A stretch of 64,000 nucleotides of DNA from Escherichia coli (GCF_044647545.1 NZ_CP172818.1); one strand, 5' to 3'. Shown: positions 24,689 through 29,612, numbered from the stretch's first letter. The notes: generated from the letters alone by a model not told the origin. Translations and numbers: made by a program.

Positions 24689-25813
24689 TTACGCCATTGT
24701 CCCAATCGTCTTCCTGAATCGCAGCAGTGCGATGGTGAAAAATGCGCCGCCAATTGCCATCAGCGTCAGGAACTGCGGCCAGACGATTTCGAATCCGGCA
24801 CCACGGTAGAGAATGGCCTGCGCGAGGCTAACAAAGTGTGTCGTCGGCATGGTCAGCATAATGTCCTGCACCATCTGCGGCATACTTTCGCGCGGCGTGG
24901 AGCCACCGGAAAGCATTTGCAGCGGCAGCAGCACCAGAATCACCAGCAGCCCCAGTTGCGGCATCGAACGCGCTATCGTCCCCATAAAAATGCCGATTGA
25001 CGTGGTGGCAAACAGACTCAGCGCCACGCCCAGCATAAACAGCGGGATCGAGCCTTCAATCGGTACGCCCAGCACGCCTTTCACCATCAGTACCAGCGAT
25101 AATCCCGACACCACCAGCACCACCAGCCCCATCGACCAGACCTTCGCCATCATGATCTCAAACGGCGTTATCGGCATCACCAGTAAGTGTTCCACCGTGC
25201 CGTGTTCACGCTCGCGGATCAGCGCCGATCCGGTCAACACAATCGCCAGCATGGTAATGTTGTTGATGATCGCCATCACCCCGCCAAACCACGCGGGATC
25301 GAGGTTCGGGTTAAAGCGCATCCGGGTTTCCAGCGATACCAACGGTTCGCTGTTATCACGGTAGCGCGCGACAAAGCTGTTCACTTCACCGTTGATAATA
25401 TTCTGGATATACCCGTTGCCGGTAAATGCCTGGCTCATGCGCGTGGCATCGACGTTCACCTGAATATCTGGCTGGCGCCCGGCGAGGACATCACGCTGAA
25501 AATTAGGCGGAATATTTATCGCAAAGGTATAACGCCCGGCGTCCAGCCCGGCATCCATCTCATCGGCGGTGATCATCTCCGGTGGCAAAAACCACGGGCG
25601 ATAGAAGCTGTTAACGATCCTGTTCGATAACTGCGATTGATCCATATCGGCAATGGCGATCGGCGCGAGGTTCAACGATCCTGGCGTAACGGTCGCTGAC
25701 GAATACACCGACACCGTAAACGAGAAGACAATCAGCGTCAGCATCGCTTTATCACCGAGCAAACTGCGCAACTCTTTGATACCCAGATTAAAAATATTGC
25801 GTAAATGGCGCAT
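24689..25813 (-). CDS. yhhJ: ABC-2 type transporter permease YhhJ
   Basis: 374 aa from [11 protein letters not shown]; six-TM ABC-2 permease pattern. Confidence 0.9.
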   Translation of the reverse strand: MRHLRNIFNLGIKELRSLLGDKAMLTLIVFSFTVSVYSSATVTPGSLNLAPIAIADMDQSQLSNRIVNSFYRPWFLPPEMITADEMDAGLDAGRYTFAINIPPNFQRDVLAGRQPDIQVNVDATRMSQAFTGNGYIQNIINGEVNSFVARYRDNSEPLVSLETRMRFNPNLDPAWFGGVMAIINNITMLAIVLTGSALIREREHGTVEHLLVMPITPFEIMMAKVWSMGLVVLVVSGLSLVLMVKGVLGVPIEGSIPLFMLGVALSLFATTSIGIFMGTIARSMPQLGLLVILVLLPLQMLSGGSTPRESMPQMVQDIMLTMPTTHFVSLAQAILYRGAGFEIVWPQFLTLMAIGGAFFTIALLRFRKTIGTMA

Positions 25814-28548
25814 CATCCCTCCTGTTTTTTCAGCAGCAGGATGCTTAAGCCCACCACCAGCGGGATGGCTATCAGCAACGGGATAAAAAGTTGCCACAAA
25901 TCAGTCAGATCCAGCGCCTTCGAGAACGTCCCGCGGGCGATAGTCAGAAAATGACTGGTCGGGTAAACCTCGCCGATCCAACGTCCTGGACCTTCCAGCG
26001 AAGCTACCGGATCGATCATCCCGGAAAACTGCGTCGCCGGAATCAACGTGATGATCGCAGTGCCAAAAATAGCGGCAATCTGGCTTTTCATAAAGGTGGA
26101 GATCAGCAGCCCCATTCCGGTGGCAATGATGATATACAGCAGCGCCGCCAGGGTGAGCGTCAGGAAACTGCCTTTATGCGGTACGCCAAACACAAACACC
26201 GACAGGCCGCAGAGCAGGAAAAAGTTCAGCATCCCCAGCGCGATGTATGGCAACTGTTTACCAAGCAAAAATTCACTACGCGTGGTGGGGGTCACGTAAA
26301 GGTTGATAATCGACCCAAGCTCTTTTTCCCGCACCACGCTAAGGGCGCTTAGCATTGACGGGATCATCATCAGCAGAAGCGGGATCACCGCCGGAACAAT
26401 CGCTGGCAGGCTTTTTACGTCCGGGTTATAGCGATAGCGCGTCTCAATGTTCATCAGCCCGCTTTGGCTGGCGGGTGTCGATTGTCGGCTCGCCACATCC
26501 TGAAGCCAACTCTGGTGCATTGCCTGCACGTAACCTTTTACCGTTTCGGCACGACTGGGCATCGCTCCGTCGATCCAGACGCCGAGTTCCACAGGCGTAC
26601 CACGCGCGATATCGCGCCCAAAATTGGGAGGGATCTCAATTGCCACCGTGATATCGCCCGCACGCATCCGACGATCCAGCTCGTCATAACTGGTGAGCGG
26701 CGGCTGTTCGATAAAGTAACGGGAACCGGAGAGATTGAGCGTCCACGCCTGGCTACTGACGGTCTGGTCGCGGTCGAGCACAGCAAAGCGCAGGTTTTCC
26801 ACATCCATACTGATGCCGTAACCCATTATCAGCATCAGGATCACCGTTCCCATCAGCGCCAGCGTCGAACGTACTGGATCGCGTCGCAGTTCCAGCGCTT
26901 CGCGGCGGCTGTAGCTAAACAGACGGCGCAGGCTAAATCCCTGACGCGGCGCGTGGGTGGTGTCGTGTACCACGGGCGGCGCTTCGGCTTCGTTGCTCTG
27001 CCCTGCCGCTTCCTGCAAATAGGCGATAAATGCCTCTTCCAGACTGGCGGCTCCGCGTTTCTCAACCAGTTCCTGCGGTGTACCGCTGGCAAGCACTTTT
27101 CCGGCGTGCATCAGTGAGATGCGGTCGCAACGTTCCGCTTCGTTCATAAAGTGGGTGGAGATGAAGATAGTCACTTTGTCCTGGCGCGAGAGATCGACCA
27201 TCAACTGCCAGAACATATCCCTCGCCACCGGATCGACACCAGAAGTAGGCTCATCGAGGATTAACATCTCCGGGCGATGAATCACCGCCACCGCCAGCGA
27301 AAGCCGCTGGCGAATGCCGAGCGGCAATGACTCCGGCAGAACATCTTCAACGTCGTTGAGCTTAAAACGCTCGCTCATTTCAGCCACTCGCGCGGGAATT
27401 TCCGCTTCCGGGATATGAAACAGACGAGCATGTAACTCCAGGTTTTGCCGCACGGTGAGTTCGTTATAGAGCGAAAACGCCTGCGACATATAGCCCACCC
27501 GACGGCGAGTATCGATATCTTTTGGATCAACCGGTTGCCCGAACAGCCACGCCTCACCTTCGCTGGCGGGCAGCAATCCGGTAAGCATTTTCATGGTGGT
27601 GGATTTACCGCAGCCGTTCGAACCAAGAAAACCAAAAATCTCCCCGCGTGGAATGCGGAAATTGACGTGATCAACGGCAACGAAGGAACCAAAACGCATG
27701 GTCAGATCGCGCGCTTCGATGGCAATCTCTGCGTTTTCAGGTTGATATGGTGGGATCACTACCGCCTGATGCGCCTGGCGTTGCGCTTGCGGTAACAGAT
27801 TTATAAATGCTTCTTCCAGCGTGGCGCTTTGCGTTTGCTGCCGCAGCTCTTCGGCGCTGCCAGTTGCCAGCACTTCTCCTGCATTCATCGCTACCAGCCA
27901 GTCGAAGCGTTCCGCCTCTTCCATATAGGCGGTGGCAACCAGCACGCTCATATTGCTCTGCCGCTGGCGAATACTGTCGATCAGATCCCAGAACTGGGCG
28001 CGGGAGAGCGGGTCAACCCCCGTTGTTGGCTCATCAAGAATCAACAGTTCCGGGTCGTGAATTAACGCACAGCACAGCCCAAGTTTTTGCTTCATCCCGC
28101 CGGAGAGTTTCCCTGCCGGGCGATCGCGAAACGGTGCTAACCCGGTGCTGGTCAGCAGCTCATTGATTCGCACTTCCCGCTCCGCTTTGTCGTGACCGAA
28201 CAGGCGAGCGAAAAAATCGACGTTTTCATACACCGACAAGGTGTGGTAGAGATTTTTGCCCAGCCCCTGCGGCATCCAGGCGATGCGCGGGCAGACGTCG
28301 CGGCGATGCTTCGGGTCGCGCATATCGCCGCCCAGCACGATCACATTGCCCTGCTCAATGACGCGGGCACCGGAAATCAATGACAATAAACTCGACTTCC
28401 CGACGCCATCCGGACCAATCAGCCCAACCATGCAGCGGGCCGGAATATCGAGAGTGATATTGTTCAGCGCAACGGTTTTTCCATAATGCTGGCTCACGCC
28501 CGCCAGTTGCGCGACAGGCGGGACGGGAACCAGTTCCAGATGCGTCAT
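25813..28548 (-). CDS. rbbA: Ribosome-associated ATPase RbbA (tandem ABC ATPase domains fused to ABC-2 permease)
   Basis: 911 aa; two Walker A sites ([18 protein letters not shown]) and a C-terminal membrane domain. Confidence 0.93.
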
Positions 28549-29612
28549 TGCGGCAACCTCACCGCCAGGTCTTCAGGCCACGGAAGTTCTTCATTCACCC
28601 GCACCCACGCTACGCCCGGCAAACCGGTTTTGACATATTCCAGATGCTGCTGGAGTAATTCCGGTGGGATACGCGCTTTGACACGGAACATCAGTTTCAG
28701 CCGTTCATCGCTGGTTTCGACGGTTTTTGGCGTGAACTGGGCGACGCTGGCGACAAAACTGATGGTCGCCGGAATACGCAGATCTGGCGCGGCATCGAGG
28801 ATCAGCCGGGCTTCACCGCCCAGTTTCAGCGTGCCCGCCTGTTCGGTTGGCAGGAAGAAGGTCATATAGACGTCGCTGAGATCGACCATATTCAGTACCC
28901 GACCACCTGCCGCCAGCACTTCGCCTGGCTCGGCAACCCGATACTGCACGCGTCCGTCACGCGGGGCTTTCAGTTCGCTGTCATCGATATCTGCGGCAAT
29001 GCGCCGTTCAGTGGCTTGCGCGGCTTCGACGCGAGTTTGCGCCTGAATGATATTGGTGCGTGCCGCCTCTATAGCGGCTTTAGAAGCAGAAACCTGGGCT
29101 TTTGCTGATTCCAGCGCAGCTCGGGCGCTCTCAGCGGCGGCGCGGTCGTCATCCAGCTGTTGCGCAGAAATTGCCCCCCGTTGGGCCAGTGAGCGGGAAC
29201 GCGTATGACGTTTTGCTACGGAGTCCAGTTCTGCCTGGCGTTGATTAACCAGCGACTGTGCGGCACGAGTTTCGCTTTGGCGTTGCTCCAGCAAAGCCTG
29301 CGCGGCGGCAACGGCACTTTGTGCTTCTTTGATTTGCGCGATGGCTTCCATTCGCTGTTCCTGCAACACGCGAGTATCCATCTTCGCCAGCACTTCACCT
29401 TCTCGAACAAACTGGCCTTCTTTCACCAGAATGGTGTCGATACGCCCGGCAATTTTGCTGGCGATATCCACTTCCGTCGCTTCAATGCGCCCATTACTGA
29501 CAGCAAAGCCTTCCGGCACACCTGCCGGGCGCAACAGCCACCACGCCACGATAGCGGCCACCGCCAGTAACCCGACAACCCACCACGCCAGATGGCGCTT
29601 ACTCTTATCCAT
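28545..29612 (-). CDS. yhiI: HlyD-family membrane fusion protein YhiI
   Basis: 355 aa; N-terminal TM anchor, long coiled-coil, 4-nt overlap with rbbA. Confidence 0.9.

What the first reader, a model, noticed from the sequence alone, without database searches (positions are those of the whole stretch)
24689..29612. yhiI-rbbA-yhhJ operon: translationally coupled ABC system with a fused double-ATPase/permease
Three minus-strand genes overlap at their junctions (4 nt at yhiI/rbbA, 1 nt at rbbA/yhhJ). RbbA combines two ABC ATPase domains with an ABC-2 permease, is followed by a separate ABC-2 permease and preceded by an HlyD-like periplasmic adaptor. No outer-membrane partner is encoded nearby, and an adaptor of the efflux type is hard to reconcile with a purely ribosome-associated role for RbbA.
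Basis: partly seen in the sequence, partly recalled or inferred. Interest (0 to 1): 0.3.

Follow-up and report, generated by a model that had tools for sequence, protein, structure and literature searches.

The report
Known E. coli yhiI-rbbA-yhhJ exporter operon
This is the already annotated E. coli yhiI-rbbA-yhhJ operon, and comparison with about 80 other bacteria indicates it encodes a membrane export pump that probably links to an outer-membrane channel, rather than a dedicated ribosome factor as the name RbbA suggests.

Summary
Three minus-strand genes sit at 24689-29612: yhiI (adaptor, 355 aa), rbbA (two ATPase domains plus an ABC-2 permease, 911 aa) and yhhJ (ABC-2 permease, 374 aa). They are joined by ATGA and TGATG overlaps. 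The locus is present in 5413 of 5426 complete E. coli genomes and is annotated with these names, so it is not new.

- **Paralogy:** it is a gene-by-gene paralogue of E. coli ybhG-ybhF-ybhS-ybhR, with RbbA equal to YbhF fused to YbhS.
- **Conservation:** all 68 related loci not cut by contig ends keep the order adaptor, fused ATPase/permease, permease, with tight junctions.
- **Outer-membrane partner:** 19 of 59 loci with enough flank carry an adjacent outer-membrane factor gene. E. coli has none in the 64-kb window.
- **Adaptor:** YhiI models as an EmrA/MacA-like adaptor with a conserved RLS motif at its hairpin tip.
- **ATP sites:** one site is canonical and one is degenerate in all 75 orthologues.
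- **Ribosome role:** RbbA lacks ABC-F features and is membrane-localised, and the main in vivo ribosome paper was retracted in 2025.

Best reading: a type-V ABC exporter that works with an adaptor and probably with TolC. The substrate is unknown. Interest is modest.

The parts
29946..29973 (-). Candidate sigma-70 promoter (TAGACA-16-TACTAT with TG) upstream of yhiY, just downstream of the yhiJ stop
   Evidence: It is a consensus match only. The region had 2 matches against 4.9 expected in shuffles, so this is not evidence of function.
29675..29788 (-). yhiY, a 37-aa small ORF (MMTTLLPVFTKPSTLALNALRAGRICRFLLIPDGRIR) 62 nt upstream of yhiI; candidate leader/uORF of the operon
   Evidence: Pfam PF23514 YhiY, E 1.5e-28, and annotated in RefSeq. 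PMC7815308 lists yhiY-yhiI among validated small ORFs with an RNA 3' end <200 nt downstream, and reports a yhiI fusion >2-fold up in rho R66S. It is 86% conserved in E. albertii.
28545..29612 (-). yhiI: periplasmic adaptor (membrane fusion protein) with an N-terminal TM helix (aa 3-27), lipoyl domain, a 2x~62-residue alpha-hairpin (aa 81-144 and 150-211) and a beta-barrel; no membrane-proximal domain
   Evidence: Pfam/NCBIfam. AlphaFold model with pLDDT 93.3. Best structural matches are EmrA in EmrAB-TolC (E 7e-22) and MacA. 30% identical to YbhG.
29166..29201 (-). RLS motif [12 protein letters not shown] (YhiI aa 138-149) straddling the hairpin tip; candidate docking site for the outer-membrane factor
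   Evidence: It is the only RxxxLxxxxxxS match in YhiI. Conservation: R 67/71, L 68/71, S/T 60/71 in orthologous adaptors and YbhG. The tip position comes from the model. The motif is defined in PMC3391258.
28545..28548 (-). ATGA overlap of the yhiI stop and the rbbA start
   Evidence: The same -4 spacing occurs in 44 of 69 related loci.
25813..28548 (-). rbbA: fused NBD1-NBD2-TMD protein (911 aa)
   Evidence: AlphaFold model with pLDDT 85.8.
27829..28512 (-). RbbA NBD1 (aa 13-240): Walker A GPDGVGKS, canonical signature LSGGMKQ (28087-28107), Walker B LLILDE, but Tyr208 (27925-27927) in place of the H-loop His
   Evidence: Tyr in 75/75 orthologues and LSGGM[KR]Q in 75/75.
27004..27726 (-). 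RbbA NBD2 (aa 275-515): Walker A GSNGCGKS, degenerate signature LPLGIRQ (27307-27327), Walker B MLILDE, canonical H-loop His466 (27151-27153)
   Evidence: No canonical LSGGQ in 0/75 orthologues; His in 75/75.
25834..26931 (-). RbbA transmembrane domain (aa 540-905): connecting helix, six TM helices, and a ~130-aa periplasmic alpha/beta domain between TM1 and TM2 (26410-26805)
   Evidence: Hydropathy, ABC2_membrane_3, model. 32% identical to YbhS. Best structural match is the ABCH-9C lipid exporter.
25811..25823 (-). rbbA/yhhJ junction AGGAGGGATGATG: Shine-Dalgarno AGGAGG inside the end of rbbA, rbbA TGA overlapping the yhhJ ATG by 1 nt
   Evidence: The ATPase-stop to permease-start gap has a median of 2 nt, and 71 of 76 related loci are within 20 nt.
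24689..25813 (-). yhhJ: second ABC-2 permease (374 aa) with the same TM1, periplasmic domain, TM2-6 plan; predicted hetero-partner of the RbbA TMD
   Evidence: 28% identical to the RbbA TMD and 24% to YbhR.

Best explanation
yhiI-rbbA-yhhJ, probably with the yhiY leader, encodes an inner-membrane ABC exporter of the ABC-2 / type-V fold.

**Proposed assembly.** One RbbA chain supplies both ATPase domains and one membrane domain. YhhJ supplies the second membrane domain. That gives a complete 2-NBD + 2-TMD transporter at 1:1. YhiI is anchored by one N-terminal helix. It would form the periplasmic sleeve whose long alpha-hairpin tip docks an outer-membrane factor. In E. coli that factor is encoded elsewhere, and TolC is the default candidate. 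Substrate taken from the inner membrane or periplasm would then be expelled across the outer membrane.

**ATP use.** Hydrolysis is predicted at one canonical site only: NBD2 Walker A/B/His466 with the NBD1 LSGGMKQ signature. The other site is degenerate (NBD1 Tyr208 with the NBD2 LPLGIRQ signature) and is predicted to bind ATP structurally or regulatorily.

**Gene expression.** The overlapping junctions would keep the three products in fixed proportion.

**Shown:** gene order, domains, motifs, paralogy, conservation, linkage to outer-membrane factor genes in other taxa, and predicted folds.

**Inferred:** the physical complex, 1:1 stoichiometry, use of TolC, direction of transport, and the single-site catalytic cycle.

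**Unknown:** the substrate. A hydrophobic or lipid-like compound, or drugs as reported for the paralogue YbhFSR, is the best guess.
For: - **Paralogy.** The operon is collinear with E. coli ybhGFSR: YhiI~YbhG 30% (E 1e-30), RbbA NBDs~YbhF 40-41%, RbbA 539-875~YbhS 32% (E 3e-50), YhhJ~YbhR 24% (E 3e-33). YbhFSR is reported as an efflux pump, with YbhG proposed to link it to TolC (PMC7190983).
- **Conserved unit.** 68 of 68 related loci not cut by a contig end keep adaptor, fused ATPase/permease and permease on one strand. So do 7 of 7 more distant homologues at 33-58% identity. Junctions stay tight.
- **Linkage to an outer-membrane factor.** 19 of 59 loci with at least 1.6 kb on both sides carry an adjacent factor gene: 16 directly upstream on the same strand, 2 downstream, 1 divergent. 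L008 has one as well. Only two further factor genes occur in the remaining flanks, each next to another adaptor-like ORF.
- **Adaptor structure.** The YhiI model (pLDDT 93) best matches EmrA in EmrAB-TolC, then MacA in MacAB-TolC. The RLS motif at its hairpin tip is conserved.
- **Transporter class.** RbbA NBDs score as DrrA/NodI-type ABC-2 ATPases and hit ABCA proteins best in the PDB. The NBD2+TMD part of the model best matches the ABCH-9C lipid exporter.
- **ATP-site asymmetry.** It is invariant in 75 orthologues and is shared by YbhF.
- **Localisation.** RbbA-mCherry is distributed around the membrane (PMC6788730).
Against: - No experiment shows transport, a substrate, or a YhiI-RbbA-YhhJ complex.
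- E. coli and its close relatives (E. albertii, Citrobacter, Providencia) have no linked outer-membrane factor. Two thirds of related loci have none either, so the pump might deliver only to the periplasm in those lineages.
- A TM-truncated RbbA stimulates some in vitro translation reactions 1.3-2.1-fold (PMC12096078). Older biochemistry, cited there and in PMC3083400, placed it on ribosomes.
- The RLS pattern in a single 355-aa protein has roughly a 0.15 chance expectation (my estimate). Its weight comes from position and conservation only.
- The structural models are monomer predictions.
Confidence: 0.72

Rival explanations
1. RbbA is primarily a ribosome-bound translation elongation factor. 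It would be an E-site ATPase that ejects deacyl-tRNA, analogous to fungal EF-3 or bacterial ABC-F proteins. Its membrane domain and neighbouring genes would then be incidental or serve only to localise it.
For: The gene name and earlier biochemistry are cited in PMC3083400 and PMC12096078. Truncated RbbA raised yields of some peptides containing non-proteinogenic amino acids 1.3-2.1-fold in a reconstituted system. EttA and Uup ribosome complexes appear among the structural matches of the tandem NBDs, ranks 14-38.
Against: - There is no ABC_tran_Xtn/PtIM linker, HEAT or chromodomain hit, and the inter-NBD linker is only ~35 aa.
- The NBDs are DrrA/NodI/ABCA-type, not ABC-F-type.
- The permease domain, second permease and adaptor are retained in 68 of 68 uncut loci. 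This is unexplained by a soluble-factor role.
- The full-length protein is at the membrane.
- Activity was shown only for a fragment lacking the TMD, because the full-length protein is unstable, and effects were smaller than or similar to any ABC-F protein tested.
- The only in vivo study linking RbbA to translation fidelity was retracted in June 2025 for image concerns.
- The EttA structural matches have low TM-scores (0.2-0.4) and reflect the generic tandem-NBD fold.
Confidence: 0.08
2. It is a dual-function protein. The complex is a transporter, but the cytoplasmic tandem NBDs, or a proteolytically released ~60-kDa fragment, also engage ribosomes. This would couple translation to export or to membrane status.
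For: This reading reconciles the in vitro activity of the truncated protein with the transporter architecture and membrane location. The low-confidence linker at aa 516-539 between NBD2 and the TMD could be a cleavage site.
Against: There is no evidence for a natural fragment. The conserved degenerate/canonical ATP-site pair is typical of heterodimeric transporters. NBDs docked on TMD coupling helices would not be free to enter the E site.
Confidence: 0.1
3. It is an adaptor-dependent ABC transporter that does not span the envelope in E. coli. YhiI would act only as a periplasmic accessory or regulator of the pump (as adaptors do in monoderm bacteria), and substrate would be released into the periplasm or outer leaflet, e.g. 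lipid or envelope-component handling.
For: There is no outer-membrane factor gene in the window or in the enterobacterial loci, and 40 of 59 related loci lack one. The structural similarity is to ABCH/ABCA lipid transporters.
Against: YhiI keeps a ~62-residue-per-helix hairpin and the conserved RLS tip motif, which have no obvious use without a factor to dock. Most E. coli tripartite pumps (AcrAB, MacAB, EmrAB) also lack a linked factor gene and use TolC (general knowledge; PMC7190983). One third of orthologous operons include a factor gene.
Confidence: 0.1

Closest known systems
E. coli YbhG-YbhF-YbhS-YbhR (CecR-regulated ABC-2 efflux system)
   Same: Same gene order and the same four modules: adaptor, tandem-NBD ATPase and two ABC-2 permeases with a periplasmic domain. 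All are detectably homologous (24-41% identity). Both share the same NBD asymmetry, with NBD1 LSGGMKQ and a non-His H-loop, and NBD2 LPLGxKQ with a His H-loop. Both carry the RLS motif in the adaptor. Neither has a linked outer-membrane factor.
   Different: In RbbA the ATPase and the first permease are one polypeptide. There is no adjacent TetR-type regulator; instead a small upstream ORF, yhiY, with reported Rho-dependent attenuation. YbhF has a longer inter-NBD insert. YbhFSR has reported drug and cation phenotypes (PMC7190983), whereas RbbA/YhhJ has none.
MacAB-TolC (ABC-type tripartite efflux pump)
   Same: An ABC transporter plus a hexamer-forming adaptor with an alpha-hairpin and RLS motif plus an outer-membrane factor. 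The YhiI model matches MacA (E 4e-19).
   Different: MacB is a type-VII FtsX-fold homodimer with an NBD-TMD order. RbbA/YhhJ is an ABC-2 (type-V) heterodimer with two fused NBDs. YhiI lacks MacA's membrane-proximal domain.
EmrAB-TolC
   Same: YhiI is most like EmrA in sequence (E 1e-9) and in fold (E 7e-22). Both have an N-terminal TM anchor, lipoyl domain, long hairpin and beta-barrel, and no membrane-proximal domain.
   Different: EmrB is an MFS proton antiporter, not an ABC transporter.
Eukaryotic ABCA/ABCH/ABCG type-V exporters (e.g. ABCA1/3/4/7, Tribolium ABCH-9C)
   Same: These are the best PDB sequence hits for the NBDs (E 1e-60 to 1e-70). ABCH-9C is the best structural match for NBD2+TMD, including an extracytoplasmic domain after TM1.
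   Different: The domain order differs, there is no adaptor or outer membrane, and the substrates are lipids. The similarity suggests but does not show a lipid-like substrate.
ABC-F translation factors (EttA, Uup, YbiT, YheS)
   Same: Two tandem ABC ATPase domains in one chain, and a reported stimulation of in vitro translation.
   Different: RbbA has a membrane domain, lacks the ~80-aa PtIM/ABC_tran_Xtn linker, and sits in a transporter operon.

Membership tests
NCBIfam NF033858 'ribosome-associated ATPase/putative transporter RbbA' (equivalog) | Full-length score above the curated cut-off (1050 bits) | tested here: met
   1595.8 bits over residues 12-910. 98-100% identical to RefSeq RbbA proteins.
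ABC-2 / type-V ABC exporters (DrrAB-, YbhFSR-like) | ABC2_membrane-family permease domains with six TM helices each | tested here: met
   PF12698 at E 8e-40 (RbbA 569-904) and 2e-34 (YhhJ). Six hydrophobic segments in RbbA. Helices in the model.
ABC-2 / type-V ABC exporters (DrrAB-, YbhFSR-like) | DrrA/NodI-type ATPase domains; two NBDs and two TMDs per transporter | tested here: met
   TIGR01188 drrA at 391.6 bits, above its 312 cut-off. Two NBDs in RbbA, one TMD in RbbA and one in YhhJ. The 1:1 assembly is inferred.
ABC-2 / type-V ABC exporters (DrrAB-, YbhFSR-like) | ATP-driven export of a substrate | not testable with these tools
   No transport data exist for RbbA/YhhJ in the papers searched.
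Tripartite (adaptor plus outer-membrane factor) efflux assemblies | Periplasmic adaptor with lipoyl, alpha-hairpin and beta-barrel domains encoded with the transporter | tested here: met
   Pfam/NCBIfam hits. Model with pLDDT 93 and a hairpin at 81-211. Top folds are EmrA and MacA.
Tripartite (adaptor plus outer-membrane factor) efflux assemblies | RLS (RxxxLxxxxxxS/T) motif at the hairpin tip | tested here: met
   [12 protein letters not shown] at aa 138-149, at the helix-turn-helix tip. Conserved R 67/71, L 68/71, S/T 60/71. Motif definition from PMC3391258.
Tripartite (adaptor plus outer-membrane factor) efflux assemblies | A dedicated or shared outer-membrane factor | tested here: inconclusive
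   None in the 64-kb window. One is adjacent in 19 of 59 orthologous loci elsewhere. Those factors resemble CusC/OprM-type lipoproteins (35-41% identity in most of the upstream-linked ones, 22-32% in the other CusC-like ones; one is TolC-like) with no clear E. coli orthologue. The E. coli partner is unknown.
Tripartite (adaptor plus outer-membrane factor) efflux assemblies | Physical envelope-spanning complex | not testable with these tools
   Needs co-purification, cross-linking or cryo-EM.
ABC-F ribosome-binding ATPases | Tandem NBDs joined by the ~80-aa PtIM linker (Pfam ABC_tran_Xtn, PF12848) | tested here: not met
   PF12848 is not among the 14 Pfam families at E<=0.01. The linker between NBD1 and NBD2 is ~35 residues (aa 240-274).
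ABC-F ribosome-binding ATPases | Soluble protein without a transmembrane domain | tested here: not met
   C-terminal six-TM ABC-2 domain. Membrane localisation reported in PMC6788730.
ABC-F ribosome-binding ATPases | Binding in the ribosomal E site | not testable with these tools
   Claimed in papers cited for a truncated fragment. There is no RbbA chain in the PDB.
MacB-type (type VII, FtsX-fold) ABC transporters, including DevBCA | FtsX/MacB_PCD permease domain | tested here: not met
   Only ABC2_membrane families hit. YhiI scores 64.7 bits against a 129 cut-off for the DevB family.

The most novel reading that the evidence does not exclude
RbbA could really work in two places. As the motor of the YhiI-RbbA-YhhJ envelope pump, its cytoplasmic tandem ATPase (or a released fragment) would also engage the ribosomal E site, so that export activity or membrane state feeds back on translation, or nascent chains are handed to the pump. 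Nothing here excludes this. It would be an unprecedented link between an ABC-2 exporter and the ribosome.
Probability: 0.08. Interest if true: 0.7.

Novelty: already known. Interest (0 to 1): 0.25.

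Why it matters
RbbA is still named and cited as a ribosome factor, as recently as a 2025 NAR paper. The main in vivo study behind a cellular translation role was retracted in June 2025.

The comparative evidence gathered here points to an ordinary but uncharacterised member of a widespread family of adaptor-dependent type-V ABC exporters. That evidence is the invariant three-gene unit, the frequent linkage to an outer-membrane factor gene, the EmrA-like adaptor with an RLS tip, and the one degenerate ATP site.

Settling this would correct an annotation that propagates through thousands of genomes. 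It would also add a third ABC-type envelope pump, with YbhGFSR and MacAB, to the E. coli efflux inventory. The gain is clarification rather than discovery of a new kind of system.

Tried and rejected
- **Word-indexed protein search with RbbA.** It returned only near-identical E. coli sequences and gave no diversity. I used the 50%-representative search and a genome-contig scan instead.
- **RbbA-YhhJ fusions as interaction evidence.** Ten clusters of 1283-1286-aa fusion proteins looked like Rosetta-stone evidence. I rejected them because each arises from a different frameshift in the last ~40 codons of rbbA (e.g. in the A-run at 25825-25830). They are probably sequencing errors or sporadic mutations.
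- **Promoter and terminator scans.** Matches were no more frequent than in shuffles, so they say nothing about co-transcription.
- **PDB sequence searches.** No solved structure exists for any of the three proteins or for YbhGFSR.
- **Naming the E. coli outer-membrane partner.** I compared the operon-linked factors from other taxa with TolC, CusC, MdtP and MdtQ. CusC is always best, but at a generic 22-41% identity, so there is no orthologue and no prediction.
- **Literature on the three genes together.** I found only omics tables, a weak GWAS hit for microcin C, a butanol-stress induction of yhiI, and a large deletion that includes the operon in paraquat evolution. None gives a function.
- **MacB/DevBCA-type and EF-3-type classifications.** I considered both and rejected them on domain content.

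Full report
**Observation**

The window is E. coli chromosome. Region 24689-29612 is present at 95-100% identity in 5413 of 5426 complete E. coli genomes. RefSeq annotates it as yhiI (HlyD family secretion protein), rbbA (ribosome-associated ATPase/putative transporter RbbA) and yhhJ (ABC transporter permease).

- yhiI 28545-29612
- rbbA 25813-28548
- yhhJ 24689-25813
- an ATGA overlap at 28545-28548
- a TGATG overlap at 25813

A strong Shine-Dalgarno (AGGAGG) lies inside the end of rbbA. A second in-frame ATG at 25816 would turn the 1-nt overlap into another ATGA.

Pfam and NCBIfam confirm the domain content. No outer-membrane factor homologue exists anywhere in the 64-kb window. The overlaps themselves are ordinary for bacterial operons. 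The operon is listed as one transcription unit in tables reproduced in PMC9962212.

**Anatomy**

YhiI has one N-terminal TM helix. Its AlphaFold model (pLDDT 93.3) shows a lipoyl domain, an alpha-hairpin of two ~62-residue helices (81-144 and 150-211) and a beta-barrel, with no membrane-proximal domain. Its best structural matches are EmrA within the EmrAB-TolC pump and MacA within MacAB-TolC.

RbbA models (pLDDT 85.8) in this order:
- NBD1 (13-240)
- a ~35-residue linker
- NBD2 (275-515)
- a disordered linker
- a connecting helix
- six TM helices, with a ~130-residue periplasmic domain after TM1

YhhJ repeats the membrane plan and is 28% identical to the RbbA membrane domain.

The two ATP sites differ. 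NBD1 has a canonical LSGGMKQ signature but Tyr208 at the H-loop. NBD2 has LPLGIRQ in place of the signature but a canonical His466. Both Walker A lysines and both Walker B Asp-Glu pairs are present. In the head-to-tail NBD dimer this gives one consensus site and one degenerate site. That inference comes from the general architecture of ABC ATPases.

**Relatives**

The operon is a gene-by-gene paralogue of E. coli ybhG-ybhF-ybhS-ybhR. RbbA corresponds to YbhF fused to YbhS, and YbhF shows the same ATP-site asymmetry.

A search of 1.8 billion representative proteins found full-length fused homologues down to 33% identity. All seven that I located on contigs sit between an adaptor gene and an ABC-2 permease gene, and one has a divergent OEP gene next to it.

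A scan of one genome per species returned 80 loci, all with full-length or contig-truncated orthologues. They come from Alpha-, Beta-, Gamma- and Deltaproteobacteria, a Corallococcus, a Lentisphaerae MAG and an Alistipes-labelled MAG. My phmmer-based neighbourhood analysis gave these results:
- All 68 loci not cut by a contig end keep adaptor, fused ATPase/permease and permease on one strand.
- 19 of the 59 loci with at least 1.6 kb on each side have an adjacent outer-membrane factor gene: 16 directly upstream on the same strand.
- Only two other factor genes occur in the remaining flanks, each next to another adaptor-like ORF.
- The enterobacterial loci have none.

Junctions are conserved. 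The adaptor stop to ATPase start distance is -4 nt in 44 of 69 loci. The ATPase stop to permease start gap has a median of 2 nt.

The ATP-site asymmetry is invariant in 75 orthologues. YhiI residues 138-149 ([12 protein letters not shown]) fit the RLS motif that PMC3391258 defines as the TolC-binding tip of MacA, AcrA, MexA and HlyD. The motif lies at the predicted hairpin tip and is conserved (R 67/71, L 68/71, S/T 60/71).

**Mechanism**

The best-supported reading is a type-V (ABC-2) heterodimeric exporter, RbbA:YhhJ, driven by one catalytic ATP site. It would be sleeved by a YhiI oligomer that docks an outer-membrane factor. In E. coli that factor must be encoded elsewhere.

TolC is the default candidate, by analogy with AcrAB, MacAB, EmrAB and the proposal for YbhGFSR (PMC7190983). 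The operon-linked factors of other taxa resemble CusC/OprM-type lipoproteins only generically, so I cannot name the partner.

The NBDs hit ABCA lipid transporters best in the PDB. The NBD2-TMD portion of the model best matches the insect lipid exporter ABCH-9C. This hints at a hydrophobic or lipid-like substrate and no more than that.

**The ribosome question**

RbbA lacks the ABC-F linker domain and any EF-3-like domain. Its NBDs are of the transporter type. RbbA-mCherry decorates the whole membrane, and RbbA-3xFLAG was recovered from isolated inner membranes, in the detergent-soluble fractions (PMC6788730).

The translation activity in the literature was obtained with a fragment lacking the membrane domain, because the full-length protein is unstable. 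A 2025 study found 1.3-2.1-fold effects, similar to or smaller than those of ABC-F proteins (PMC12096078).

The 2011 study that tied RbbA to YhjD, translation fidelity and respiration in vivo was retracted in June 2025 for unresolved image concerns (PMC12169533).

I cannot refute an additional ribosome-related activity, and I rate it unlikely as the main function.

The 37-aa ORF yhiY (29675-29788) lies 62 nt upstream of yhiI. PMC7815308 reports a yhiI reporter more than 2-fold up in a rho mutant. It also lists yhiY-yhiI among validated small ORFs followed within 200 nt by an RNA 3' end, which the authors suggest may mark uORF-dependent regulation.

YhiY is conserved in E. albertii and partly in Citrobacter, but not beyond. 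The unit may therefore be yhiY-yhiI-rbbA-yhhJ with an attenuator. This is a published lead, not something I tested.

**Verdict**

The added value is comparative evidence that favours the transporter reading, together with specific testable predictions: the RLS residues, E433 against E173, and dependence on an outer-membrane factor.

Novelty: already known. Interest: about 0.25.

Noticed in passing
window 29675-29788 (-), and 29613-29674: The small ORF yhiY (37 aa) lies 62 nt upstream of yhiI. The literature reports Rho-dependent termination affecting yhiI and an RNA 3' end just downstream of yhiY, which suggests a leader-peptide attenuator. YhiY is conserved only in Escherichia and partly in Citrobacter.
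   Followed up: partly
window 19500-24690 compared with L001:8297-8928: The flank downstream of yhhJ is variable. This window has RhsB fragments and an ISEc1/ISAs1 transposase (yhhI, 23465-24601 +). Strains whose operon is 100% identical carry hicAB there instead. No complete genome matches window 19000-31700 better than 97.3%, although the operon alone has 100% matches, which suggests a mosaic or recombinant boundary at the 3' end of yhhJ.
   Followed up: partly
window 25813-25900 (-); proteins P0001-P0010: About ten E. coli protein clusters are 1283-1286-aa RbbA-YhhJ fusions. They are created by different frameshifts in the last ~40 codons of rbbA. The yhhJ reading frame is open upstream to 25897, so single-base indels (e.g. 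in the A6 run at 25825-25830) fuse the genes. They are probably sequencing errors or sporadic mutations.
   Followed up: partly
L017:6874-17392: A Desulfuromonadales MAG carries an RbbA-type operon (adaptor, fused ATPase/permease, permease). It is followed directly by a YbhGFSR-type operon (adaptor, 657-aa double ATPase, two permeases), so both paralogue architectures sit in tandem.
   Followed up: no
window 29978-33534 (-): Two paralogous DUF4049 genes (yhiJ, 540 aa, and a second ORF of 516 aa) of unknown function lie immediately upstream of the operon.
   Followed up: no
L049 (contig labelled Alistipes senegalensis MAG) and L057 (Lentisphaerae MAG): RbbA orthologues at 58-61% identity appear in MAGs assigned outside the Proteobacteria. 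The Alistipes case could be horizontal transfer or a binning error.
   Followed up: no
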